DNA of 64,000 bases from an uncultured Bacteroidia bacterium. Lineage in GTDB: Bacteria; Bacteroidota; Bacteroidia; Bacteroidales; CAJPTX01. This document shows, piece after piece, positions 33,356 through 43,589 of the stretch. Position 1 is the stretch's first letter. Each line of letters starts with the position of its first letter. The notes below the pieces were generated by a model that searched no databases, was not told the origin of the DNA, and saw nothing but the letters and a program-made list of their open reading frames with translations. The stretch is taken from contig CBDEMG010000012.1 of the NCBI GenBank assembly GCA_965240855.1, positions 2,307 through 66,306 on the forward strand. The letters are read 5' to 3'. Position numbers and translations under genes: made by a program.

Positions 33356-33991
33356 CTACTCGCTGCAGTTCATATATCCAGTAAAAAAGCTGTTTTTGCG
33401 CCAAAACCCAAGTTTGAATATATCGCCTTTCCGTAGTGGTTTGAGTTGGAGGTTTAGTTCATGGCGGGAGGTTATAGGGTTGTCATCAATGGTTTGTAAT
33501 AAATCGCCTGCATGAAGTATGCACTCACCTCTTTTTGGAACGAGTGATAGTAATACTGGTATTCCGCCACATCGATTCGCCTCATCTACATGATAATGTT
33601 CGCCTATGTACAGGTTTGGTATTCTTTCTACGCGATATTGTTCAACTATTTGAGTACAGATTGCTTCCCTAATGTCGTGCTCTAGGGTGGTGTAGAAGCG
33701 AGCGGCCGTAGGCTTATCTTTTACTCTGGTGAGTGTATTGAGTAGTCCTAAATTACCAGCCATAATTCTAGCAGTTATCACTACGCCTCTGTCGTCATAC
33801 TCTTTTGCGATACGAAAAACCAGCGGTAAGTAGGTTGTCAAATAGCTGTTTAGGGCGATTAGACTCCCGTTTTCTATTCGTTCCCGTATTTGCAACAGTT
33901 CGGATACGGTATAGCCGAAATATTCCTTTTTCGTGAGGTATGCTGATTTGGTGCGATTAGAGCTCGTTGCTACTTTGCAAGACGACCTCAA
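33356..33991 (-). CDS. Hypothetical chimeric protein: sigma-70 region 1.2-2.4-like domain + PDZ-like domain (no regions 3/4)
   Basis: The ORF is colinear with the neighbouring RpoD region 2 (LVFRIAKEYDDRG-8 aa-GNLGL ... IREAICTQIVEQYRVERIP). The C-terminus has a PDZ-like pattern. There is no ATG start: candidates are TTG 33991, which overlaps htrA by 35 nt, or TTG 33895. Confidence 0.5.
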   Translation of the reverse strand: MRSSCKVATSSNRTKSAYLTKKEYFGYTVSELLQIRERIENGSLIALNSYLTTYLPLVFRIAKEYDDRGVVITARIMAGNLGLLNTLTRVKDKPTAARFYTTLEHDIREAICTQIVEQYRVERIPNLYIGEHYHVDEANRCGGIPVLLSLVPKRGECILHAGDLLQTIDDNPITSRHELNLQLKPLRKGDIFKLGFWRKNSFFTGYMNCSE

Positions 33992-35236: not shown

Positions 35237-36571
35237 TCAGGCAATTTTGCGTCTATTGAGTAGTAGGAGTGCAATTGTTAGTACACTCCCTTTGAGAATA
35301 CTGGAGACGGAGATTCCCCACCAGATACCAGCCAAGGAGTAGAATCCCCACCAGAGACCGAGAGGGATACGGAGAAGATTGAAACTAATGCCAACAATGG
35401 CGGGTGGTACGGTACGTCCGATTCCGTTAAATACAGCAGCACTTAGGATCTCGAGGATCATGAAGATTTGGGAGAATCCCATAATGAAAAGGTATTCTTT
35501 TCCTAAGCGCATAGCCTCGGCTTCTGGAATAAATAGTCCCATCAGTTCTGAACCGAAAAAGAGAAAAAGTATAGTGCTCACACATCCCATACTAGCCATA
35601 TATCCTAGAGTGATGCGATATCCTTTTTTTATTCGGAGAATATTCTGTGCCCCCCAATTTTGTCCTACAAAGCTTGTTAGTGCAGTGGCAAAGCCGCCTG
35701 CAGTCATCCACGAGATTGCTTCTATTTGTGCACCCACCGACTGTACTGCTATCCCCAAATCGCCCCACCGAGCCACAAAGCGTGCAATAACAAAAGCAAT
35801 GATAGCAAAGAGCCCGTTGTGTAATGTAACAGGAAGTCCTAAACGTACAATGCGTTGTGCAAATGAGCGGGAGAGTCGAAACCCCGACAACAGCTTGTGA
35901 AAGAGCGCTTTCTTTGGTATGTTGAGGATTACAAACATTAGTGCGACAAATGCTTGCGAGAGTGTGGTTGCGAGTGCAGCGCCAGCCACTTCTAATTTTG
36001 GGAAAAAGAGATAGCCTTCGATCAGAAGCGGATCGAGGAGGAGGTTGAGTACTAACCCCGTCCCATTGGCCCAGAAAGCGAGTTTGGCTTTTCCGCGTCC
36101 ATTGTAGAGACCAAAGAAAGTTGCATTGAGAAAAGCAAAAGGACTTCCGATGGCAACCAGTGTAAGGTATTCAATGGCGTAGCGCTTTGCTAGAGGCGAA
36201 GTAAAGGCAAAGTAAGCCACCAAAGGTGTGCGCAGTGCTACAAGGAGAAACCAATATATGAGTCCGAGTAGGAGGGCTAGGAATAGGGCGTGTTGAGCAT
36301 ATCGGTTGGCGCGTTGGTAAGTTCGAGCGCCTATACTTTGCGATATAGTAATTTCCGCACCTACTTTTGTGAGCATCCCCAAAGAGATCCCAAGCCAAGT
36401 AAACATCCCCATGGCTCCTACAGCGGCTGCTGCAATACCACTCAGATGACCGATCCAGTAGAAATCTGCCATATTATAGGCCATCTGAATAAAAGCAGTA
36501 CCCATGATGGGGAGGGCTAGCTTTAAGATTTGCGGTGTAATGCGTCCTCGTGTGAAATCTGATCTATCCAT
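35237..36571 (-). CDS. MATE family efflux transporter
   Basis: It is 444 aa with 12 predicted TM helices and the MATE N-terminal pattern (ILKLALPIMGTAFIQMAYNMADFYWIGHL). Confidence 0.88.
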   Translation of the reverse strand: MDRSDFTRGRITPQILKLALPIMGTAFIQMAYNMADFYWIGHLSGIAAAAVGAMGMFTWLGISLGMLTKVGAEITISQSIGARTYQRANRYAQHALFLALLLGLIYWFLLVALRTPLVAYFAFTSPLAKRYAIEYLTLVAIGSPFAFLNATFFGLYNGRGKAKLAFWANGTGLVLNLLLDPLLIEGYLFFPKLEVAGAALATTLSQAFVALMFVILNIPKKALFHKLLSGFRLSRSFAQRIVRLGLPVTLHNGLFAIIAFVIARFVARWGDLGIAVQSVGAQIEAISWMTAGGFATALTSFVGQNWGAQNILRIKKGYRITLGYMASMGCVSTILFLFFGSELMGLFIPEAEAMRLGKEYLFIMGFSQIFMILEILSAAVFNGIGRTVPPAIVGISFNLLRIPLGLWWGFYSLAGIWWGISVSSILKGSVLTIALLLLNRRKIA

Positions 36572-36575
36572 AGAT

Positions 36576-38222
36576 TTATAGATGTAGAAGAGATTGGAAG
36601 GCCTCTAGTAAGTCTTCGGATTCGATCTCCGAATTTAAGAGGAGGTTGCTCGTTGCGTAACGCTCTTTGACACGTTGCGACATTTGGCGTAGTGAGGTTG
36701 CAAAAAGTTGGTAGACAAATTGGTCGGCATACCCTCCGCGATCAAAGTAGGGTTGTGCTTTTTCATACACATCTCTCAGGGTTTGGTAGGCTTCGGCTGC
36801 TACGTCAATTTCGGCGAGGAGGGCGAGTTGTTTGAAGTGTAGGGAAAGGTGTTGATAGGTATAGGGTACGAAGCGTATGACGAAATTATTGCGCTCCTCC
36901 AACTGAGGGAGATAGTGTTGTATGTAGGCTGAGGATACGAACTCGAATATAAACATCCGTTCATTCAATAGCTCGGAGAGTTGAGTCATTAATGCTCGTA
37001 AGTTTTTTTGTTCGTCTAGAGTGGTTTGCGAGAGTAAGGGGAAATTGTGGAAGTAGATACAGCCCTTTTTGTAGCGATCAAGGAGTTTCTCTTGTTCTTG
37101 GGGAGAGAGCAAGAGTTTTTTCTGAAGATCCCATTCGTAGTAACCTTGGCTGTATGGCCAGTTCTCTATTTGGGAATATTGGTGTCGTAGTATTCTAGCA
37201 GCGTCGCGTTGTCCGAGCCCAGCTTGTCCAATAAAGAGAAAGGTATAGTTAAAGGATTGCTGTTCTTCGATGTATTGTGTGAGTTCTTTTTGAAGGATAG
37301 CAATATCTTCTAGTGGCGATACTTCATCAAAGCGAGGCGAACGTTGGTCTACGTAGAGCTCTGTAGTAAACGAGGCTAGAATCTCATCGCCTTTTACGGG
37401 GCGAAAGAGTAGACTCGCTGTACGGTTGTAGTCCTCTAGTAGACTTGTATATCGTTTTTGTATACGTTCGTCGGCTGTGACAAGGAAGGCGATCATATCG
37501 TTTATCCCCTTCCAAAGTATTGAAGTATCGAATGTATTTAAGCCAATACTCTGTGCAAAGGAATGGAGCTCGAATGGGAAGTTCACATCTGAATTGTCAG
37601 AATATGTACCCAACAAGTTGATTATCGATAGACAAAAGGGGGCGGTGTTGATTTGTGTGATTAGATAATCGAGATCGATCTGGAAATATTCGTTCTGGAG
37701 GAGAAAGTACGACTGTAGGAGGGGGAGACTACTGGGAGCTATCTCTGGAGTGAATTCGAAAACTGTACGCCACAAATAGTTGAGGAAACGGAGGTATTCT
37801 ATCTTCGTGAGCTTACTACGGAGTACTTGTTTGTTACGACGCTGTATGATGTGGAAAATATGTTGTACATGAAAGAGTGAGGCTTGAAAGAAGTCGTTCG
37901 AAAGCTTGGAGCAGGCATCGGATGTTGTACTAGGTACAGGGTACTGCTGTCTAAAGGCATTGGAGAGACGTTCTAGGAGTTCTGCAAAACGTATGTGAGG
38001 GTAGTAGAAGTTGCCTGCAGTGTCCTGTTCGATAAATCGGTGGTGGCGAGCAAAGTCGAGTGTAGAACGGACGATACTTTCGTTAAGATTCAGTTCATGA
38101 CTTATGCGTTGTAGGGGGTGTTGTAAGACCTCGAGTGGGAATTCCTCACGAAGAAATTCTGCGAAGAGTTTGTAGCCTTGTGGCGCTAAGAAAGACGTGT
38201 AGGTTGTGTTTGTTTCTGCCAT
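36576..38222 (-). CDS. Hypothetical protein: unknown N-terminal region + CbbX/SpoVK-like AAA+ module with degenerate Walker A and B
   Basis: The start is ATG 38222; the track's extension to 38363 overlaps the upstream gene. The P-loop position reads GQAGLGQRD (37203-37229) and the Walker B position reads CIYFHNF (37041-37061). The lid helices are colinear with the CbbX/SpoVK family. Confidence 0.6.
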   Translation of the reverse strand: MAETNTTYTSFLAPQGYKLFAEFLREEFPLEVLQHPLQRISHELNLNESIVRSTLDFARHHRFIEQDTAGNFYYPHIRFAELLERLSNAFRQQYPVPSTTSDACSKLSNDFFQASLFHVQHIFHIIQRRNKQVLRSKLTKIEYLRFLNYLWRTVFEFTPEIAPSSLPLLQSYFLLQNEYFQIDLDYLITQINTAPFCLSIINLLGTYSDNSDVNFPFELHSFAQSIGLNTFDTSILWKGINDMIAFLVTADERIQKRYTSLLEDYNRTASLLFRPVKGDEILASFTTELYVDQRSPRFDEVSPLEDIAILQKELTQYIEEQQSFNYTFLFIGQAGLGQRDAARILRHQYSQIENWPYSQGYYEWDLQKKLLLSPQEQEKLLDRYKKGCIYFHNFPLLSQTTLDEQKNLRALMTQLSELLNERMFIFEFVSSAYIQHYLPQLEERNNFVIRFVPYTYQHLSLHFKQLALLAEIDVAAEAYQTLRDVYEKAQPYFDRGGYADQFVYQLFATSLRQMSQRVKERYATSNLLLNSEIESEDLLEAFQSLLHL

Positions 38223-38230
38223 GAGTATTT

Positions 38231-38782
38231 TTATGCTCGGAGGAGTTCGTCTAGGAGTAAGGTTTCGTCCATACTTAGCAATACTCGTGTGGGGAATCGG
38301 AATGGTAGAGGAGTGTCTAATAGTGGGAAGAGTAACCAATCGCCCGCATTGAGGGTCATCCATTCACAAAGTGTTTGTAATCGGGTTTCTAAATATTTAT
38401 AGGAAGGAGGTTTTACTGTTTGCGTTATATCACTATGACTCTCGTAGAGTGTAAAACCTTCAATAGATTCCCATGTAATTTGTTCGAACGAAAGAGTCGC
38501 TCCTGCGATGATAGTGCGGTCTTCGCTATAAATGCGTGTAGGTGTAGCATCTAGCAGAGCGAGTGTCTCATTGGCTAAATGAAAGGCGACTCCGAAACGG
38601 TCGCAAAGTTTGTACAGTTCCCTGCTTACGGTTCGAGAATTACTCTTTATGTGCAAGTATACGCATGGCATAAGACTATAGCTACAATCAGGGTTGTAAT
38701 AGTATACTTCGCCGCGATTGGTGCGTGCGGTATCCGAACAGAGGACGCACCCGTTAGCCTCGAGTATTCGCAATATTTTCAT
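38231..38782 (-). CDS. Hypothetical 183-aa protein with an N-terminal CxxC-x17-C-x6-C cluster
   Basis: The ORF starts at an ATG and its stop is 8 nt upstream of the next gene's ATG. I recognise no family for it. Confidence 0.55.
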   Translation of the reverse strand: MKILRILEANGCVLCSDTARTNRGEVYYYNPDCSYSLMPCVYLHIKSNSRTVSRELYKLCDRFGVAFHLANETLALLDATPTRIYSEDRTIIAGATLSFEQITWESIEGFTLYESHSDITQTVKPPSYKYLETRLQTLCEWMTLNAGDWLLFPLLDTPLPFRFPTRVLLSMDETLLLDELLRA

Positions 38783-38802
38783 TTCTGGAGTCCCGTTCTA
38801 GT

Positions 38803-38850
38803 AAAAAGAAACCAGTTACTGGCAACGCGCGCTAGCGATTCAGTAACTGG
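38803..38850 (-). terminator. Intrinsic terminator after the dnaN-exonuclease operon
   Basis: On the minus strand, CCAGUUACUG-loop-CAGUAACUGG (10-11 bp) is followed by UUUCUUUUU, 21 nt after the exonuclease stop. Confidence 0.8.
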
Positions 38851-38871: not shown

Positions 38872-39696
38872 TTAAGCTTTATGCAACTCTTTGTATATCG
38901 TGGTTACAATTTCTTTTACTTGAGCAGAGAAATCAGCTTGCATAATCCAGCCATAGTAACCATCGTTTTGTGCAAAAACATCACGAACCACTTGTCCCTT
39001 ATATTTTCCGAAATTGAAAACAATGTCGTTCTTATCGTTATAAGCTAAACGATTGGAGAGATCCACGCTTTTTTGTCCACTATTGCAAAATTGCGATAGC
39101 CCTTTCACATCTGAGGGGAGATCGTCGTACTTACGCAACTGTGCTGCTAGCACCTCGGCAGTGGCGCGAGTATCTGCAAGAGCGGAATGTGCATTGAAGA
39201 GCTCTGCGTTGCAATAGTAACGATATGCTGCTACTAGATTACGTGGCTCTTTTTGAGTGAAAATAAGATGAGCATCGAGGAGTGCATGATCTGTCAGATC
39301 TAATTTTATCCCAGTACGAGCAAATTCCTCTACAATCATAGGTACATCAAAACGCGTAGAATTGTAGCCTGCTAGATCCGAATTAAAGAAATAGGGTAGT
39401 AATGCCTCTGCTATTTCTTCGAATCTGGGAGCGTCCTTTACGTCCTCATCTGTAATACCATGTATTGCTGTTGTTGCAGGAGGGATCGGGATACCTGGGT
39501 TTACCAGCGTCTCCCATTCTCGCGAAGATCCGTCCTCGAGTACCTGCAAAAGGGCAATTTGTACGATGCGAGAACTTACAACATCCAGTCCTGTAGTTTC
39601 TAAATCGAAAAAGAGGAGTGGGCGACGTAATTCTAGCTCGGAAAACAAGGTACTAGAATATTGACTTTTGGACCAATTAATTGTTTTCACTACCAT
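38872..39696 (-). CDS. DnaQ/epsilon-like DEDDh 3'-5' exonuclease with a C-terminal DUF3820-like domain
   Basis: Exo I is FFDLETTGL, Exo II is AGYNSTRFDVPM and Exo III is HSALADTRATAEV. The C-terminus carries the FGKYKGQVVRDV....YYGWI pattern. Confidence 0.85.
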   Translation of the reverse strand: MVVKTINWSKSQYSSTLFSELELRRPLLFFDLETTGLDVVSSRIVQIALLQVLEDGSSREWETLVNPGIPIPPATTAIHGITDEDVKDAPRFEEIAEALLPYFFNSDLAGYNSTRFDVPMIVEEFARTGIKLDLTDHALLDAHLIFTQKEPRNLVAAYRYYCNAELFNAHSALADTRATAEVLAAQLRKYDDLPSDVKGLSQFCNSGQKSVDLSNRLAYNDKNDIVFNFGKYKGQVVRDVFAQNDGYYGWIMQADFSAQVKEIVTTIYKELHKA

Positions 39697-40879
39697 CGTT
39701 CTGCTCTATTACAAGCGAAGCTAAAGTGATAAGTTGCCAGTACTCGATATTTTCATTAAGTCCGATGGTTGGCTTAATATAAGCAGATCCTCGACTATCC
39801 ATATTGTTGTATGGTTCGGGGAGTACTAGTAATACGTCGTCCGAACTAATATGTTCGAAGGCTTTTTTTAGCGCACTCATCGTAATAGAGATGCGAAGAG
39901 GAGTCGCGTCTTGTGTCTGACAGGCAATTTGTTTGCGCATCCGAGGTACGATACTCGACTGTGAAATGTAGAAATCCATTAGATTATCCGCTATAGTAAT
40001 TACCATAGGGAGATCTTTTTGTACACAGAAAGGCGCAAAGAAATCAATGGTACGTATTACCTCTGCACGCGATACAACGATCTCGTGTAATTCTCCTCGC
40101 GGACAAGCTGTATTGTAGTCAGGGAAGACACTCTCGAGTACGCGCGTTATCAATACAAAGTCTTCTGTCTGAAATGTCGCAAAACGCTCGCTATAAGAGA
40201 GAGTAACTTGGCTCTCTGAACGTTCACGCAAACAATTGAGCAGGTTTTCCATCGCACGAATTGGGAGGCAAATGCGAGTAGGGGTAAGATCCGACATTCC
40301 CGAACATTGCACATATCCGAGATTGCTCCCATCGGTAGCCACAAAATTAATGGTGTTCTCCTTAATTTCGAACAAAATGCACTGAAAGGAGGCTCGTCCA
40401 TTCTTCGATGACGCAAGCGCTGCAAAGGAGGTGTATTCCAGCCCCGTTTTGAGGACGTCCTCTGTAAGAGTGAGCGTATTGGTTTCTTGTTCTTCTTGCC
40501 ACTCCTCGATTACTTGGATATAGGAGGAGGACTTCCCTTCGAGTGAGACATCGAAGCCATTCACACTAACATTGACCTTTACTTGGTCGCCATAGCCGCT
40601 AGGTTCGGTCGAGAAAACGACGGTCTCGTTTTTATCAAAATTCTTTGAAGTGATAGCTGTCATCACCAAGCGTAGTGGAAAGGAAACTTCCCCCTCTTCG
40701 TATACTTCGACCTCGGGGATCTGTACACGCATAATAATCTCGGTGTCGGCTAGTGTTATGGTTAGCGTATTACCTTCGGCTCGCACGACATTACCGTCCG
40801 AGATAAATGGACGTAGCGGTATGCGCTGTAAATAAGTCCAAGCTTCGGAGAGCGCAAGAATCGTTGTATTGAAACGCAT
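39677..40879 (-). CDS. dnaN: DNA polymerase III beta sliding clamp, divergent (400 aa)
   Basis: It is colinear with DnaN landmarks (N-terminal MRF...; VATDGSNLGY for ATDGHRL; RVLESVFPDYNTACP for LIDGxFPDYxxVIP), but many usually conserved positions are replaced. Confidence 0.7.
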   Translation of the reverse strand: MRFNTTILALSEAWTYLQRIPLRPFISDGNVVRAEGNTLTITLADTEIIMRVQIPEVEVYEEGEVSFPLRLVMTAITSKNFDKNETVVFSTEPSGYGDQVKVNVSVNGFDVSLEGKSSSYIQVIEEWQEEQETNTLTLTEDVLKTGLEYTSFAALASSKNGRASFQCILFEIKENTINFVATDGSNLGYVQCSGMSDLTPTRICLPIRAMENLLNCLRERSESQVTLSYSERFATFQTEDFVLITRVLESVFPDYNTACPRGELHEIVVSRAEVIRTIDFFAPFCVQKDLPMVITIADNLMDFYISQSSIVPRMRKQIACQTQDATPLRISITMSALKKAFEHISSDDVLLVLPEPYNNMDSRGSAYIKPTIGLNENIEYWQLITLASLVIEQNDGSENN

Positions 40880-40917
40880 CTAGTAATCGATTATAATTTA
40901 CGAAGGACAAAGGTAGC

Positions 40918-42873
40918 CTATTTAATAAATTCGTTCACTCGAGCGACGATACGTTCCTCTAGTCTTTGGGAGGTATCGTGTTCTAGCTTTTTGCCCACAA
41001 GACGTTCGTATAATTCTAGGTAACGTTCTGAGATTTCTTTAGCCTTGCTCTCTGTGAGTTCGGGTATTTTCTCCCCCTCCTTTCCTGCGAAGCCATTATC
41101 CATAAGCCACTGGCGTACAAATTCTTTGGAGAGTTGTCGTGGTGCTCGTCCAGCACTAATACTGGTATTAAAATCAGAGCTTTCGAAATATCGCGAAGAG
41201 TCGGGAGTATGAACCTCGTCTATCAGATAAACCTTCTCGTCGCGTAGACCAAATTCGTACTTCGTATCGGCAAGTATTAAGCCTCTTTCTGCGGCCAATT
41301 TAGTTCCTGCTGCAAACAGTGCGAGTGCGTAGCGTTCGAGTTGTAGGTAGTATTTTTCTTCTACGAGTCCTTGAGCGATAATCTCCTCACGTGAGATATT
41401 TTCGTCATGTCCTGTTTCGGCTTTTGTGGTGGGCGTTATTATTGGGGAGGGGAATTTGTCGTACTCCTGCATCCCTTCTGGGAGAGTTACGCCACAAAGT
41501 GTACGAGCGCCATTTTTGTATTCTCTCCAAGCACTTCCACAGAGATAGCCTCGGACGATCATTTCCACTGCAAAGGGCTTGCAATCGAGCCCCACCATCA
41601 CCATTGGATCGGGCATCCCGAGCATCCAGTTGGGGACAATATCTTTAGTTGCTTGTAGAGCTTGGTATGCAATACCATTGAGTACCGCGCCCTTGTGTTC
41701 GATGCCGCAGGGAAGTACGACATCGAAGGCGGAAATCCGATCTGTTACCACCAATGCTATCAGTCCGTTAGAGAGGTGGTATACATCGCGCACTTTGCCC
41801 TGAAAACGCGAGATTACACCCTTAAACTTACAATCGGTATGTAGTAGTGTATTACTCATTGCTAATAAATTGAGTTCTTTATTTCTGTCCTGTTCGTTTG
41901 TCGAATTCTTTTTCTCCCAGGTCTGAAATGCAGTAACGATCTGAGAGACGAGCCGATGCCGTACAATATCTTCTACGCGCATCTCTACAATGGCGATACC
42001 CGCGATCTCGCGGACTATATCAATCGCTGTAAGTAGCCCTGAACGGTGAGGATCGGGGAGGTCTATTTGCGTAAGATCGCCTGTTATAATCGCTTTTGCA
42101 TTGCGCCCAAGACGTGTTAGGAACATCTTCATTTGAGGGATTGTCGCATTCTGCGCCTCGTCGAGAATAATGTAAGCATTGTCCAGAGTCCGTCCCCGCA
42201 TATACGCTAAAGGCGAGATTTGTATTGTTCCCTCCTGTAGAAGCGATTTGAGTGTTGCAGCAGGCATCATGTCGTTTAGTGCATCGTAGAGAGGTTGTAG
42301 ATAGGGATCGAGCTTGTCTTTAAGATCGCCGGGTAGGAAACCGAGACGTTCTCCTGCCTCTACTGCAGGACGAGTAAGAATGAGACGACGGATTTTCCGC
42401 TGACGAAGAGCACGAACCGCAAGTGCAATGGCGGTATAGGTTTTCCCTGTACCTGCGGGTCCGATAGCGAATACGATATCGTGCGTACGTTCGGCTTCTA
42501 TAAAGAGACGTTGTTGTGGAGTACGTGCACTGATCCTGTTGCCGCTAGAGCCATATACTATTGTTTCACTACTAGTGTCAGGAATTTTATGAGAGAGAGA
42601 GGAGGGGACTCTTAGTATAATTTGTTCGAAATGATAGTCGTCGATTTCATGTTGCTTCATGTAAAGAGCTTCAAGGGCAAAGATATCCTGCTCGAGGTTT
42701 TGGATAGAGGCGCTATTGCCTTCTACTAGCAAGAGCGAACCACGTGATGCTATGCGGAGTTCGGGGTATTTTTCTTGTATTTGTACAAGCCGTTTGTTGT
42801 CGACGCCAAGGATATCTAGCAGTGCAATATTTTCTAGGGAGATGGTTCGTTGTTCGGTTGTAGTGGCTCGCAT
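40918..42873 (-). CDS. In-frame fusion ORF: PhoH-like ATPase (42873-41860) + SAICAR synthetase PurC (41859-40918)
   Basis: The PhoH part has GPAGTGKTYTAIA and ILDEAQN. The PurC part starts at the internal MSNTLLH and has VTDRISAFD, TKYEFG and HTPDSSRY. No stop codon separates the two parts. Confidence 0.8.
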   Translation of the reverse strand: MRATTTEQRTISLENIALLDILGVDNKRLVQIQEKYPELRIASRGSLLLVEGNSASIQNLEQDIFALEALYMKQHEIDDYHFEQIILRVPSSLSHKIPDTSSETIVYGSSGNRISARTPQQRLFIEAERTHDIVFAIGPAGTGKTYTAIALAVRALRQRKIRRLILTRPAVEAGERLGFLPGDLKDKLDPYLQPLYDALNDMMPAATLKSLLQEGTIQISPLAYMRGRTLDNAYIILDEAQNATIPQMKMFLTRLGRNAKAIITGDLTQIDLPDPHRSGLLTAIDIVREIAGIAIVEMRVEDIVRHRLVSQIVTAFQTWEKKNSTNEQDRNKELNLLAMSNTLLHTDCKFKGVISRFQGKVRDVYHLSNGLIALVVTDRISAFDVVLPCGIEHKGAVLNGIAYQALQATKDIVPNWMLGMPDPMVMVGLDCKPFAVEMIVRGYLCGSAWREYKNGARTLCGVTLPEGMQEYDKFPSPIITPTTKAETGHDENISREEIIAQGLVEEKYYLQLERYALALFAAGTKLAAERGLILADTKYEFGLRDEKVYLIDEVHTPDSSRYFESSDFNTSISAGRAPRQLSKEFVRQWLMDNGFAGKEGEKIPELTESKAKEISERYLELYERLVGKKLEHDTSQRLEERIVARVNEFIK

Positions 42874-42876
42874 TTG

Positions 42877-43392
42877 TTATACCATCGTAGCGTTTTGCTT
42901 GGAGTTTTTAGTACGGAGGATAGCGATGATCCCAGGCAGTCCCATAAAAATAAGTGTGAAAATCCCAAAGGAGAGGGTTTGCCAAAAGAGTGGTATCCGC
43001 GCAAATATGAGGGAGGAGAGAGTACATAGAATACCCGTGTATAATGTAAGACGTTCGCGAGTGAGTATTCCCGAGATGGCAATCCCAGTTCCCAAAACAA
43101 TGAGCTTTGCTACGAGTGGACTAGGGGACTCAAAGCCGATGAATCCGATAGTGGGACCTAAAATACTCCACACTGCCGCAATGGATTTGCGAGCCTCGCC
43201 AAAGAGTTGCACTTTTGAACGGAACTTCCGAATAAGTAAGAAGGATCCCGTGAGACCTAGAATGGGGACAAGTATCCAACCTGCACCTAGGGCAGTAAAG
43301 TGCGTCCAAAAGGTAAGAAATGAGAGAAGGACACTCGTAATAAACGTAGCACCTGCCCAGACTAAAAAGAAATATCCTTCTGGTTTTCCCAT
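42877..43392 (-). CDS. Multi-pass membrane protein of unknown function (171 aa)
   Basis: It has 5-6 clear hydrophobic helices, and its stop is 3 nt from the phoH ATG. The antisense 229-aa ORF looks non-coding. Confidence 0.7.
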   Translation of the reverse strand: MGKPEGYFFLVWAGATFITSVLLSFLTFWTHFTALGAGWILVPILGLTGSFLLIRKFRSKVQLFGEARKSIAAVWSILGPTIGFIGFESPSPLVAKLIVLGTGIAISGILTRERLTLYTGILCTLSSLIFARIPLFWQTLSFGIFTLIFMGLPGIIAILRTKNSKQNATMV

Positions 43393-43396
43393 AGCG

Positions 43397-43404
43397 CAAA
43401 GGTA
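43397..43404 (-). promoter_or_regulatory. -7 promoter box TACCTTTG 4 nt from ATG 43392
   Basis: The plus-strand CAAAGGTA is an exact TAnnTTTG on the minus strand. Its position implies a leaderless mRNA. Confidence 0.35.
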
Positions 43405-43514: not shown

Positions 43515-43589
43515 CGGGGCGTAGCGCAGCCCGGTTAGCGTGCATCGTTCGGGACGATGAGGTCGGGAGTTCGAATCTCCCCGCCCCGA
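43515..43589 (+). tRNA. tRNA-Pro (anticodon CGG)
   Basis: I folded the cloverleaf by hand. The acceptor stem is CGGGGCG/CGCCCCG and the D stem is GCGC/GCGT. The anticodon stem CATCG/CGATG carries the loop TTCGGGA, and the T arm is GGGAG-TTCGAAT-CTCCC. The discriminator is A, and no CCA is encoded. Confidence 0.95.

What the first reader, a model, noticed from the sequence alone, without database searches (positions are those of the whole stretch)
38231..38850. 183-aa Cys-cluster protein paired with the pseudo-AAA+ gene, insulated from the dnaN-exonuclease operon by a strong terminator
The 183-aa ORF (ATG 38782) carries CxxC-x17-C-x6-C near its N-terminus (NGCVLCSD...NPDCSYSLMPC), which could be a zinc-binding knuckle. 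I recognise no other family features. It ends 8 nt before the pseudo-AAA+ gene. Only 20 nt upstream of its ATG lies a 10-11 bp hairpin plus UUUCUUUUU that should terminate dnaN-exonuclease transcription. I find no TAnnTTTG box between that terminator and the ATG. Expression of the cassette (183 aa, 548 aa and probably the MATE gene) would therefore depend on terminator read-through or on a non-canonical promoter, for example an ECF-type one. Two unknown proteins coupled to an efflux pump and gated this way may form an uncharacterised module.
Basis: partly seen in the sequence, partly recalled or inferred. Interest (0 to 1): 0.55.

Follow-up and report, generated by a model that had tools for sequence, protein, structure and literature searches.

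The report
Degenerate FAH-fold protein after dnaN-exonuclease
The 183-aa "Cys-cluster" ORF is a real, conserved gene, but it is not a zinc knuckle: it is a highly diverged copy of a common metabolic enzyme (the FAH/YcgM/FAHD1 family) that has lost that enzyme's metal-binding and catalytic residues, found in a small group of uncultured, partly oral Bacteroidia.

Summary

The zinc-knuckle idea fails. Two of the four Cys (C12, C33) occur only in this genome and its 95%-identical twin.

The protein has the fumarylacetoacetate-hydrolase (FAH) fold (AF2 pLDDT 84; all top-50 PDB fold hits are FAH-family; hhalign probability 96.7% against canonical Bacteroidia FAH). It is the positional descendant of the YcgM/FAHD1-type gene: 45 of 62 metagenomic loci with that gene have the exonuclease directly upstream.

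The E-x-E...D metal triad, the catalytic Lys and the His/Glu lid segment are gone. C15, C40 and H68 sit at former active-site positions. dN/dS is 0.11, so the gene is still constrained. It is best read as a pseudoenzyme or a re-tooled FAH.

The hairpin and U-tract are conserved with compensatory changes in the ~43-48% GC relatives. The FAH-like, pseudo-AAA+ and MATE trio is conserved in one subclade. Deeper relatives (L097, L098) carry the FAH-like gene as the last gene after the exonuclease, with no AAA+ or MATE gene. The "insulated module" reading is only partly supported. Function is unknown. Interest is moderate to low.

The parts
38231..38782 (-). 183-aa FAH-fold protein. It is a degenerate YcgM/FAHD1-type protein. 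The metal triad and the catalytic lid are lost.
   Evidence: No Pfam or NCBIfam hit. AF2 pLDDT 84.3, pTM 0.82. All top-50 Foldseek PDB hits are FAH family, TMq about 0.75. hhalign against canonical FAH: probability 96.7%, E 3.4e-10. dN/dS 0.11.
38812..38850 (-). Hairpin with 10-11 bp outer stem and 19-nt loop. It is terminator-like.
   Evidence: Homologous hairpins occur in L001, L004, L006/L008 and L009, with compensatory changes. It is not a dispersed repeat. No Rfam family matches.
38803..38811 (-). U-tract TTTCTTTTT. It lies 20 nt before the ATG.
   Evidence: U-tracts also follow the hairpin in the relatives.
36576..38222 (-). 548-aa pseudo-AAA+ protein. It has a helical N-terminal half and an AAA+ core at about residues 320-450, with Walker A GLGQR and Walker B-like IYFHNF.
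   Evidence: Foldseek hits to NSF, ClpC1, p97, FtsH and RuvB, E 1e-4 to 6e-6. No Pfam or PDB-sequence hit.
35237..36571 (-). MATE family efflux transporter. It starts 4 nt after the pseudo-AAA+ stop codon.
   Evidence: PF01554 E 2e-49. TIGR00797 200 bits, above its cut-off.
38872..39696 (-). DEDDh 3'-5' exonuclease (RNase_T plus ExoX-like C-terminal domain), upstream neighbour.
39677..40879 (-). Divergent dnaN (beta clamp), first gene of the ancestral operon.
   Evidence: (89 bits, below the 137.65 cut-off).
40908..40915 (-). TACCTTTG, the only perfect Bacteroidetes -7 box near the cluster. Its 5' end is 36 nt upstream of the dnaN ATG. It is a candidate promoter for the whole dnaN...MATE transcript.

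Best explanation
The 183-aa ORF encodes a real FAH-fold protein under purifying selection. It descends from the roughly 203-aa YcgM/FAHD1-type gene (oxaloacetate tautomerase/decarboxylase family). In many Bacteroidota that gene is the third gene of a dnaN-exonuclease-FAH operon.

In a small, uncultured Bacteroidia lineage the gene lost the catalytic core. The lineage includes Candidatus [Bacteroides] periocalifornicus and a dolphin-oral MAG. The losses are:
- The segment of about 21 residues carrying the GRNYxxHxxE His/Glu lid is deleted.
- The metal triad E-x-E...D became S/x, C40 and H68.
- The active-site Lys and Gln became Tyr and Ala.
- The GTPxGVG loop became FPLL.

The protein therefore cannot carry out the canonical Mg/Mn-dependent chemistry. 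I infer that it works either as a non-catalytic ligand- or partner-binding protein (a pseudoenzyme) or through a rebuilt Cys/Cys/His site at the old active site.

In the subclade that contains this window it is followed at 8 nt by a pseudo-AAA+ protein and then by a MATE exporter. These are probably co-translated and possibly form a complex.

A conserved hairpin and U-tract separates the gene from the exonuclease. In this genome the hairpin has a large loop and no recognisable promoter follows it. It most likely acts as a partial terminator (attenuator). Read-through from the dnaN promoter would then give a lower dose of the three downstream genes.

Shown: the fold, the ancestry, the loss of residues, the selection, the synteny and the hairpin conservation. 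Inferred: non-catalytic function, complex formation and read-through.
For: Fold:
- The family-profile search of PDB sequences gives FAH proteins as its three best hits and seven of its 16 hits (YcgM 1nr9, HpcE 1gtt, 1nkq, FAHD1), E 0.0035-1.2.
- The AF2 model has pLDDT 84.3.
- All 50 best Foldseek hits are FAH-family structures, probability 1.00, TMq 0.64-0.76.
- hhalign against one canonical FAH gives probability 91.6%. Against a 20-sequence canonical profile it gives 96.7%, E 3.4e-10, over 171 columns that reach the last residues of both proteins.

Ancestry:
- In the complete Bacteroidales genome CP070654.1 a 203-aa PF01557 protein overlaps the exonuclease stop by 4 nt.
- Among metagenomic loci holding that canonical FAH, 45 of 62 with enough upstream sequence have the exonuclease directly upstream, and 25 of 41 have dnaN-exonuclease-FAH.

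Residue loss:
- Canonical invariant residues K30, E54, E56, D85, R89, Q92, K106 and T173-P176 align to C15, S36, C40, H68, E72, A75, Y85 and FPLL.
- The triad is required for metal binding and catalysis in YisK (10.1101/2023.06.26.546597).
- K123 and Q109 are catalytic in FAHD1 (PMC12176266).

Selection and conservation:
- dN/dS is 0.110, against 0.025-0.032 for neighbouring genes.
- The exhaustive search returned 12 matches at E<=0.001. Ten were taken as family members; the 4474-aa P0019 and the 87-aa fragment P0016 were not. Eleven columns are invariant in the 11-sequence alignment.

Synteny.

Hairpin: searches show C-G to G-C and A-U to U-A changes in L006 and G-C to A-U in L009.

Precedent for non-catalytic FAH function: the catalytically dead YisK variant E148A E150A still localises and widens cells (10.1101/2023.06.26.546597).
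Against: - No biochemical or expression data exist.
- Pfam PF01557 is not matched at its threshold by any of the 14 members. The best is E 0.0012, in one member.
- I could not measure distances between C15, C40 and H68 in the model. Their clustering is inferred from homology.
- A conserved new motif (C-x-DTAR-x-NRGE) and near-invariant C15, C40 and H68 could mean a new enzymatic activity and not a pseudoenzyme.
- Pairing with the pseudo-AAA+ gene is not universal (L097, L098).
- The read-through idea rests on failing to find a promoter. That test is weak here: rpoD and htrA also lack a TAnnTTTG match.
Confidence: 0.6

Rival explanations
1. Re-tooled enzyme or metal site. The FAH scaffold kept a pocket, but the hard-metal carboxylate triad was exchanged for a Cys15/Cys40/His68 cluster. 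That cluster would bind a soft metal (Zn, Fe, Cu) or act as a Cys-His nucleophile pair, giving a new catalytic or sensing activity. This is the closest surviving form of the first reader's 'metal-binding' idea, using different residues.
For: - C15, C40 and H68 align to canonical K30, E56 and D85. All three are invariant in canonical FAH, and two are metal ligands.
- They are conserved in 12/13, 12/14 and 13/14 family members.
- One member, P0015, has lost all three together (L, I, Q). That is the pattern expected for residues that work as a unit.
- The motif DTARxNRGE next to C15 is nearly invariant.
Against: - P0018 keeps C15 and H68 but has T at position 40.
- P0015 survives as an intact ORF without all three, so the fold's role does not strictly need them.
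- No 3D distances were measured.
- There are no metal or activity data.
Confidence: 0.22
2. A CxxC...C...C zinc-knuckle protein forms, with the pseudo-AAA+ and the MATE pump, an autonomous module. The module is insulated from dnaN-exonuclease by a strong terminator and driven by a non-canonical (for example ECF-type) promoter.
For: - The Cys spacing exists in this genome.
- The hairpin and U-tract are conserved.
- The trio is tightly spaced and syntenic in the subclade.
- There is no TAnnTTTG before the ATG in the window.
Against: - C12 and C33 are not conserved beyond the 95%-identical twin.
- The fold is FAH, not a zinc knuckle or ribbon.
- The gene is ancestrally part of the dnaN-exonuclease operon and still abuts the exonuclease without a hairpin in L010 and L097.
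- L097 and L098 lack the partner genes.
- L006/L008 carry a standard TAATTTTG box, so no exotic promoter is needed there.
- No ECF sigma gene or motif was identified.
Confidence: 0.08
3. A decaying remnant. The ORF is a dying FAH gene that merely remains open. It has no function of its own and is kept only because its translation is coupled to the downstream genes.
For: - Catalytic residues are lost.
- The gene evolves about three times faster than its neighbours: 37-44% identity where the exonuclease keeps 71-76%.
Against: - dN/dS of 0.11 is far below 1.
- The ORF stays intact, at 183-240 aa, across lineages of 43-65% GC that share only 30-44% identity. Eleven columns are invariant and new conserved motifs have appeared.
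- It persists in L097 and L098, where no downstream gene could be coupled to it.
Confidence: 0.05

Closest known systems
YcgM / FAHD1 / YisK-type short FAH-family proteins (PF01557; NCBIfam PRK10691). These are oxaloacetate tautomerases/decarboxylases (PMC10825186, PMC12176266).
   Same: - Same fold.
- Collinear from residue 13 to residue 181 of 183.
- Same N-terminal MKI(I/V) start and same C-terminal LLD-x-x-(R/K) end.
- The GD of the TLxxGD motif and the D of the FD motif are retained.
- Same genomic slot directly after dnaN-exonuclease.
   Different: - About 20 residues shorter. The GRNYxxHxxE segment is missing.
- The E-x-E...D metal triad, the catalytic Lys and Gln, the substrate Arg and the GTPxGVG loop are all replaced.
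- Not detected by Pfam or NCBIfam at their thresholds.
- Evolves faster than its neighbours.
Non-catalytic (moonlighting) behaviour of B. subtilis YisK (10.1101/2023.06.26.546597).
   Same: It is an FAH-fold protein whose cellular effect (Mbl-dependent localisation, cell widening) does not need the metal triad. This is a precedent for an FAH scaffold acting through protein-protein contacts.
   Different: YisK is still an active enzyme with an intact triad, and it uses an extra small domain for localisation. The protein studied here has naturally lost the triad and has no extra domain. No partner has been shown.
Degenerate AAA+ subunits with a dead Walker A (classic-clade AAA such as NSF, p97, ClpC and FtsH gave the fold hits). 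This concerns the 548-aa neighbour.
   Same: It has the alpha-beta-alpha core with the strand order of AAA+. The best fold matches are AAA+ ATPases.
   Different: - Walker A Lys is Gln in every homologue, including the 810-aa L010 protein.
- Walker B acidic residues are absent.
- There is a helical N-terminal half of about 300 residues of unknown fold.
- No sequence-level family match was found.
- The model is of low confidence overall (pLDDT 48.8).

Membership tests
FAH superfamily (fumarylacetoacetate hydrolase fold, PF01557) | FAH C-terminal-domain fold | tested here: met
   AF2 pLDDT 84.3, pTM 0.82. All 50 best Foldseek PDB hits are FAH-family, probability 1.00, TMq up to 0.76.
FAH superfamily (fumarylacetoacetate hydrolase fold, PF01557) | Significant sequence or profile similarity to family members | tested here: met
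   hhalign of family profile against canonical Bacteroidia FAH profile: probability 96.7%, E 3.4e-10, 171 columns. PDB sequence profile hits to YcgM, HpcE and FAHD1, E 0.0035-0.1. Pfam's own threshold is NOT reached by any of the 14 members; the best is E 0.0012.
FAH superfamily, active enzymes (YcgM/FAHD1/YisK type) | Divalent-metal triad E-x-E...(29 residues)...D | tested here: not met
   Canonical E54, E56 and D85 are invariant. They align to S36 (variable), C40 and H68. The triad is defined in 10.1101/2023.06.26.546597.
FAH superfamily, active enzymes (YcgM/FAHD1/YisK type) | N-terminal GRNYxxHxxE segment (His/Glu catalytic lid) | tested here: not met
   Canonical residues 7-27 have no counterpart. 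The alignment resumes at canonical residue 28, matched to residue 13 here, and the protein is about 20 residues shorter.
FAH superfamily, active enzymes (YcgM/FAHD1/YisK type) | Catalytic Lys and Gln (FAHD1 K123, Q109) and the GTPxGVG loop | tested here: not met
   Canonical K106, Q92 and T173-P176 align to Y85, A75 and F/P/L/L. Roles of K123 and Q109 are from PMC12176266.
FAH superfamily, active enzymes (YcgM/FAHD1/YisK type) | Oxaloacetate tautomerase, decarboxylase or acylpyruvase activity | not testable with these tools
   This needs purified protein and an enzyme assay.
   C12 becomes V or F, and C33 becomes Y, S, D, G, H or R, in all homologues except the 95%-identical twin.
   In the model, residues 1-45 form strands of the FAH beta-structure.
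Intrinsic (Rho-independent) terminator | G+C-containing stem followed directly by a U-tract | tested here: met
   An 11-bp stem followed by UUUCUUUUU. The 19-nt loop is atypically long.
Intrinsic (Rho-independent) terminator | Structure conserved in orthologous intergenic regions | tested here: met
   Hairpins of -22.6 to -32.7 kcal/mol, each followed by a U-tract, occur in L001, L004, L006/L008 and L009, with compensatory pair changes. The hairpin is absent in L010, L097 and L098.
Intrinsic (Rho-independent) terminator | Transcripts end at the U-tract in vivo | not testable with these tools
   This needs Term-seq, 3' RACE or a metatranscriptome.
AAA+ ATPase (the 548-aa neighbour) | AAA+ alpha-beta-alpha core fold | tested here: inconclusive
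   Only residues of about 300-450 are modelled with pLDDT 56-83; the overall value is 48.8. Foldseek hits to NSF, ClpC1, p97, FtsH and RuvB have E 1e-4 to 6e-6 but TMq of about 0.25.
AAA+ ATPase (the 548-aa neighbour) | Walker A GxxGxGK[ST] and Walker B hhhhDE | tested here: not met
   GQAGLGQR (Lys replaced by Gln, invariant) and IYFHNF (no acidic pair) in all 8 homologues. L010 has GPPGNGQS.

The most novel reading that the evidence does not exclude
The former Mg/Mn site of an FAH enzyme has been rebuilt into a Cys15/Cys40/His68 site for a soft metal or a redox-active thiol. The protein would use it to sense a metal, an oxidant or an electrophile. Together with its co-translated pseudo-AAA+ partner, it would then control or assist the adjacent MATE exporter. 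This would be a previously undescribed sensor-adaptor-pump unit built from two dead enzymes, grafted onto the replication-gene operon dnaN-exonuclease.
Probability: 0.12. Interest if true: 0.65.

Novelty: new variant of a known kind. Interest (0 to 1): 0.35.

Why it matters
- It turns a 'hypothetical protein' family into a defined case of enzyme-to-pseudoenzyme (or re-tooled enzyme) evolution. The members are annotated as hypothetical by NCBI, and one is mislabelled 'ferredoxin-type' in UniRef.
- The parent enzyme was only recently recognised as a near-universal oxaloacetate tautomerase.
- It documents a widespread dnaN-exonuclease-FAH gene order in Bacteroidota.
- It shows stepwise remodelling in an uncultured lineage that includes oral taxa: loss of catalytic residues, then gain of pseudo-AAA+ and MATE neighbours, then insertion of a terminator-like hairpin.
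- The practical value is mainly for annotation and as a test case for what constrains a pseudoenzyme. It does not open a long-standing question.

Tried and rejected
- Pfam, NCBIfam and PADLOC on the 183-aa and 548-aa proteins gave nothing at threshold.
- The word-indexed homology search found only the 95% twin. The exhaustive HMMER search was needed to find the family.
- Idea that the two genes are degenerate CoaBC and RecN, which follow dnaN-exonuclease in some Bacteroidales (L013). Rejected: the 183-aa protein has the FAH fold. The pseudo-AAA+ has its P-loop at about residue 335, whereas RecN's is, from general knowledge, near its N-terminus. tblastn of CoaBC and RecN against the window found nothing.
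- Idea that the hairpin arms are a repeated element or operator palindrome. Rejected: the motif occurs only at this site in the window, and self-palindromy of the arms is not conserved in relatives (read from the sequences).
- Rfam gave no family at the hairpin.
- The MAFFT alignment of the intergenic regions mis-placed L009, so the hairpins were compared by folding each one.
- C-terminal LLLDELLR as a beta-clamp-binding peptide. Rejected: it is the last beta-strand of the fold and is shared with canonical FAH (LLDFxIK).
- A PDB sequence profile search with the 548-aa family found nothing.
- A literature search for FAHD1 residue numbers returned mostly irrelevant papers.
Full report
**1. Checking the observation**

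The ORF 38231-38782 (minus strand, 183 aa) exists. It carries C12-x2-C15-x17-C33-x6-C40. Its TAA stop (38233-38231) lies 8 nt before ATG 38222. Homologues of 548-575 aa confirm ATG 38222 as the start of the next gene, not the 595-aa ORF from 38363.

Upstream lies a hairpin. The arms are CCAGTTACTG (38850-38841) and CAGTAACTGG (38821-38812), with a 19-nt loop. TTTCTTTTT follows at 38811-38803, then exactly 20 nt, then the ATG.

No TAnnTTTG occurs within 197 nt upstream of the ATG, even with one mismatch.

On this sequence alone the hairpin is unremarkable (z = -1.3 against shuffles). Its long loop makes 'strong terminator' an overstatement.

**2. Is the ORF a gene?**

Yes.

- The word-indexed search found only a 95%-identical twin, annotated as a hypothetical protein in a 'Bacteroides sp.' MAG.
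- An exhaustive HMMER scan of 1.8 billion cluster representatives returned 12 matches at E<=0.001. Ten of them (157-240 aa, 30-95% identity) were taken as family members and aligned. The other two, a 4474-aa protein and an 87-aa fragment, were left out.
- Between two relatives with unsaturated divergence (L001 and L004, dS about 0.7), dN/dS is 0.110. This is clearly purifying. It is about three times higher than for purC, the exonuclease or htrA, which give 0.025-0.032.

**3. The Cys cluster**

In the 14-sequence alignment, C12 and C33 are present only in the window and its twin. C15 is kept in 12 of 13 members, and C40 in 12 of 14. A four-Cys zinc knuckle is therefore not a property of the family.

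**4. What the protein is**

- A family profile searched against PDB sequences gave FAH-superfamily proteins as its three best hits and seven of its 16 hits (YcgM 1nr9, HpcE 1gtt, yeast 1nkq, FAHD1), E 0.0035-1.2.
- AlphaFold2 with the family alignment gave a confident model, pLDDT 84.3 and pTM 0.82.
- All 50 best Foldseek matches in the PDB are FAH-family structures: FAHD1, YcgM, HpcE, Cg1458, YisK and others. Probability is 1.00 and TMq is 0.64-0.76.
- Profile-profile comparison with 20 canonical Bacteroidota FAH proteins gives probability 96.7%, E 3.4e-10. The alignment is collinear over 171 columns and reaches the last residues of both proteins.

**5. Ancestry**

I looked at what follows the dnaN-exonuclease pair in other Bacteroidales. 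The slot is variable: coaBC-DUF4835-recN in L013 and truA in L015.

In the complete genome CP070654.1 (L014) the slot holds a canonical 203-aa PF01557 protein. That protein overlaps the exonuclease stop by 4 nt. NCBIfam types it as YcgM-like (PRK10691).

Scanning metagenome contigs with that protein returned 80 loci.
- Of the 62 loci with at least 800 nt upstream, 45 have the exonuclease directly upstream on the same strand.
- Of the 41 loci with at least 2.1 kb upstream, 25 show dnaN-exonuclease-FAH.

The 183-aa gene thus occupies the slot of a widespread third operon gene and shares its fold. I take it to be that gene's diverged descendant.

The twelve canonical loci I inspected have variable downstream genes, often on the opposite strand. 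tblastn found no pseudo-AAA+ or MATE gene in any of the 80 loci.

**6. What was lost**

Canonical invariant residues map as follows.

| Canonical FAH | 183-aa family |
|---|---|
| Residues 7-27 (GRNYxxHxxE) | No counterpart; accounts for the length difference of about 20 residues |
| K30 | C15 |
| E54 | S36 (variable) |
| E56 | C40 |
| D85 | H68 |
| R89 | E72 (variable) |
| Q92 | A75 |
| K106 | Y85 |
| TGTP | FPLL |
| D109 (retained) | D88 |
| G168-D169 (retained) | G147-D148 |
| C-terminal LLD motif (retained) | LLD motif at the C-terminus |

The E-x-E...D spacing of 29 residues matches the YisK triad E148/E150/D179. That triad coordinates the divalent cation, and its loss (E148A E150A) abolishes activity (10.1101/2023.06.26.546597).

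FAHD1 K123 and Q109 are catalytic (PMC12176266). They correspond to canonical K106 and Q92 at a constant offset of 17 residues.

YcgM, FAHD1 and YisK are oxaloacetate tautomerases (PMC10825186).

The family therefore cannot perform the canonical metal-dependent reaction.

New conserved features have appeared. These are the motif C-x-DTAR-x-NRGE, 'MPC', 'G-x-A-x-H', 'YS-x-DR' and 'LN-x-GDW'.

C15, C40 and H68 sit at former active-site positions. One member, P0015, has lost all three at once (L, I, Q). This hints that they act together. I could not measure their distances because model coordinates are not exposed.

**7. The neighbours**

The 548-aa protein has no sequence-level family match. Only seven homologues were found, at 42-99% identity.

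Its AF2 model is poor overall (pLDDT 48.8). Residues of about 300-450 reach 56-83, with a beta-alpha-beta pattern. Foldseek matches AAA+ ATPases (NSF, ClpC1, p97, FtsH, RuvB; E 1e-4 to 6e-6).

The P-loop is G-x-x-G-x-G-Q-R in all homologues, and GPPGNGQS in the 810-aa L010 protein. The Walker B position lacks acidic residues. 'Pseudo-AAA+' is a fair description.

The MATE gene starts 4 nt after it.

**8. Synteny and its limits**

The block from phoH-purC-dnaN-exonuclease through the FAH-like gene to pseudo-AAA+-MATE-htrA-(sigma/PDZ-like ORF)-rpoD is conserved in all near relatives (L001-L009). Those genomes are collinear throughout, so this says little about functional coupling.

Three deeper relatives are more informative.
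- L010 is a 65% GC dolphin-oral Bacteroidia MAG. It keeps exonuclease-FAH-like-pseudo-AAA+-MATE. The FAH-like gene starts only 20 nt after the exonuclease, with no hairpin.
- L097 (GCA_002754915.1) has dnaN-exonuclease-FAH-like with a 3-nt gap, then a terminator-like hairpin and a convergent gene. It has no AAA+ or MATE gene.
- L098 (Candidatus [Bacteroides] periocalifornicus) has exonuclease-FAH-like followed by a terminator-like hairpin. It also has no AAA+ or MATE gene.

The degenerate FAH is therefore not tied to the pseudo-AAA+/MATE pair. The simplest reading is that it came first and the pair was added later (loss in L097/L098 is not excluded). The hairpin is specific to the ~43-48% GC subclade (L011 lacks the upstream region). 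The order of these steps is my inference from this distribution. No tree was built.

**9. The hairpin**

Homologous hairpins, each followed by a U-tract, are present in L001 and L004 (about 20 bp), L006/L008 (about 20 bp) and L009 (16 bp).

Around the shared GUUACU core, compensatory changes occur. C-G becomes G-C and A-U becomes U-A in L006. G-C becomes A-U in L009. Several G-U intermediates also occur.

It is not a dispersed repeat and not an Rfam family.

L006/L008 carry a perfect TAATTTTG box starting 25 nt before the ATG. L001 and L009 have one-mismatch versions that overlap the U-tract. The window has none.

The only perfect box near the cluster is TACCTTTG, starting 36 nt upstream of dnaN. 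rpoD and htrA also lack a match, so absence of the motif is weak evidence in this genome.

The three downstream genes are under purifying selection and must be expressed. The window's hairpin is the weakest version. I therefore favour partial read-through from the dnaN promoter. This is an inference.

**10. Verdict**

This is an ordinary kind of object with an unusual twist. It is a member of the FAH superfamily by fold and descent, but it fails every test for an active FAH enzyme. It is invisible to standard family models.

In one subclade it is coupled to a second dead enzyme and an efflux pump. Its function is unknown.

My best guess is a non-catalytic binding or scaffold role (confidence about 0.6 for the overall account). 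A rebuilt Cys/Cys/His site is the main rival (about 0.2).

I rate novelty as a new variant of a known kind, and interest as moderate to low.

Noticed in passing
window 39677-40879 (-): The dnaN here is unusually divergent. It scores 89 bits against TIGR00663, whose cut-off is 137.65. The C-terminal clamp domain is not detected by Pfam. It is 24% identical to a canonical Bacteroidales dnaN, although the adjacent exonuclease keeps about 53%. Within the lineage it evolves as fast as the two unknown proteins: 26-51% identity against 71-77% for the exonuclease, and dN/dS 0.081. L097, a deeper relative, has a normal three-domain dnaN. I could not check whether a second dnaN exists elsewhere in the genome.
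   Followed up: partly
window 40918-42873 (-): PhoH and SAICAR synthase (purC) are read as one 651-aa ORF here. In relatives L001, L004 and L006 they are two genes overlapping by 8 nt. This could be a real fusion, an indel or an assembly error.
   Followed up: no
window 33356-33991 (-): A 211-aa ORF lies between htrA and rpoD. Its N-terminal part resembles sigma-70 region 1.2/2 (E 2e-9 against RpoS/RpoD models, far below their cut-offs). It also has a weak C-terminal PDZ_2 match. It is conserved as a 192-193-aa gene in all relatives. This is an odd sigma-fragment/PDZ combination next to a PDZ protease and the housekeeping sigma factor.
   Followed up: no
L017-L096 and L014 6765-7376: The gene order dnaN-exonuclease-FAH (YcgM type) is common. 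It occurs in 45 of 62 informative metagenomic loci, often with gaps of about 20 nt or overlaps. I did not find a description of this linkage between a metabolite-repair enzyme and replication genes.
   Followed up: partly
L006 7395-7437 (also L008): A second predicted hairpin, AGCUCAGAGACUGUAAUUUUGUACUGUCUGAGGGUUGU, lies downstream of the terminator-like one. It encloses the TAATTTTG box and ends next to the start codon.
   Followed up: no
P0018 (L098 811-1533): UniRef labels the Candidatus [Bacteroides] periocalifornicus member '4Fe-4S ferredoxin-type domain-containing protein'. A local C-x2-C-x3-C stretch (CLRCRGVC) that is not conserved in the family may be the reason. This looks like an annotation artefact.
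   Followed up: partly
L001 9724-10680: In L001 the gene after the pseudo-AAA+ is called as 318 aa with no Pfam hit. The otherwise near-identical L002 and L003 have a 428-444-aa MATE gene there. It may be a disrupted MATE gene or an assembly problem in that sample.
   Followed up: no
window 43397-43404 (-) and 43515-43589 (+): A perfect TACCTTTG box starts only 12 nt upstream of the ATG of a 171-aa membrane-like ORF (42877-43392), which suggests a very short or absent leader. A tRNA gene lies just beyond it on the other strand.
   Followed up: no
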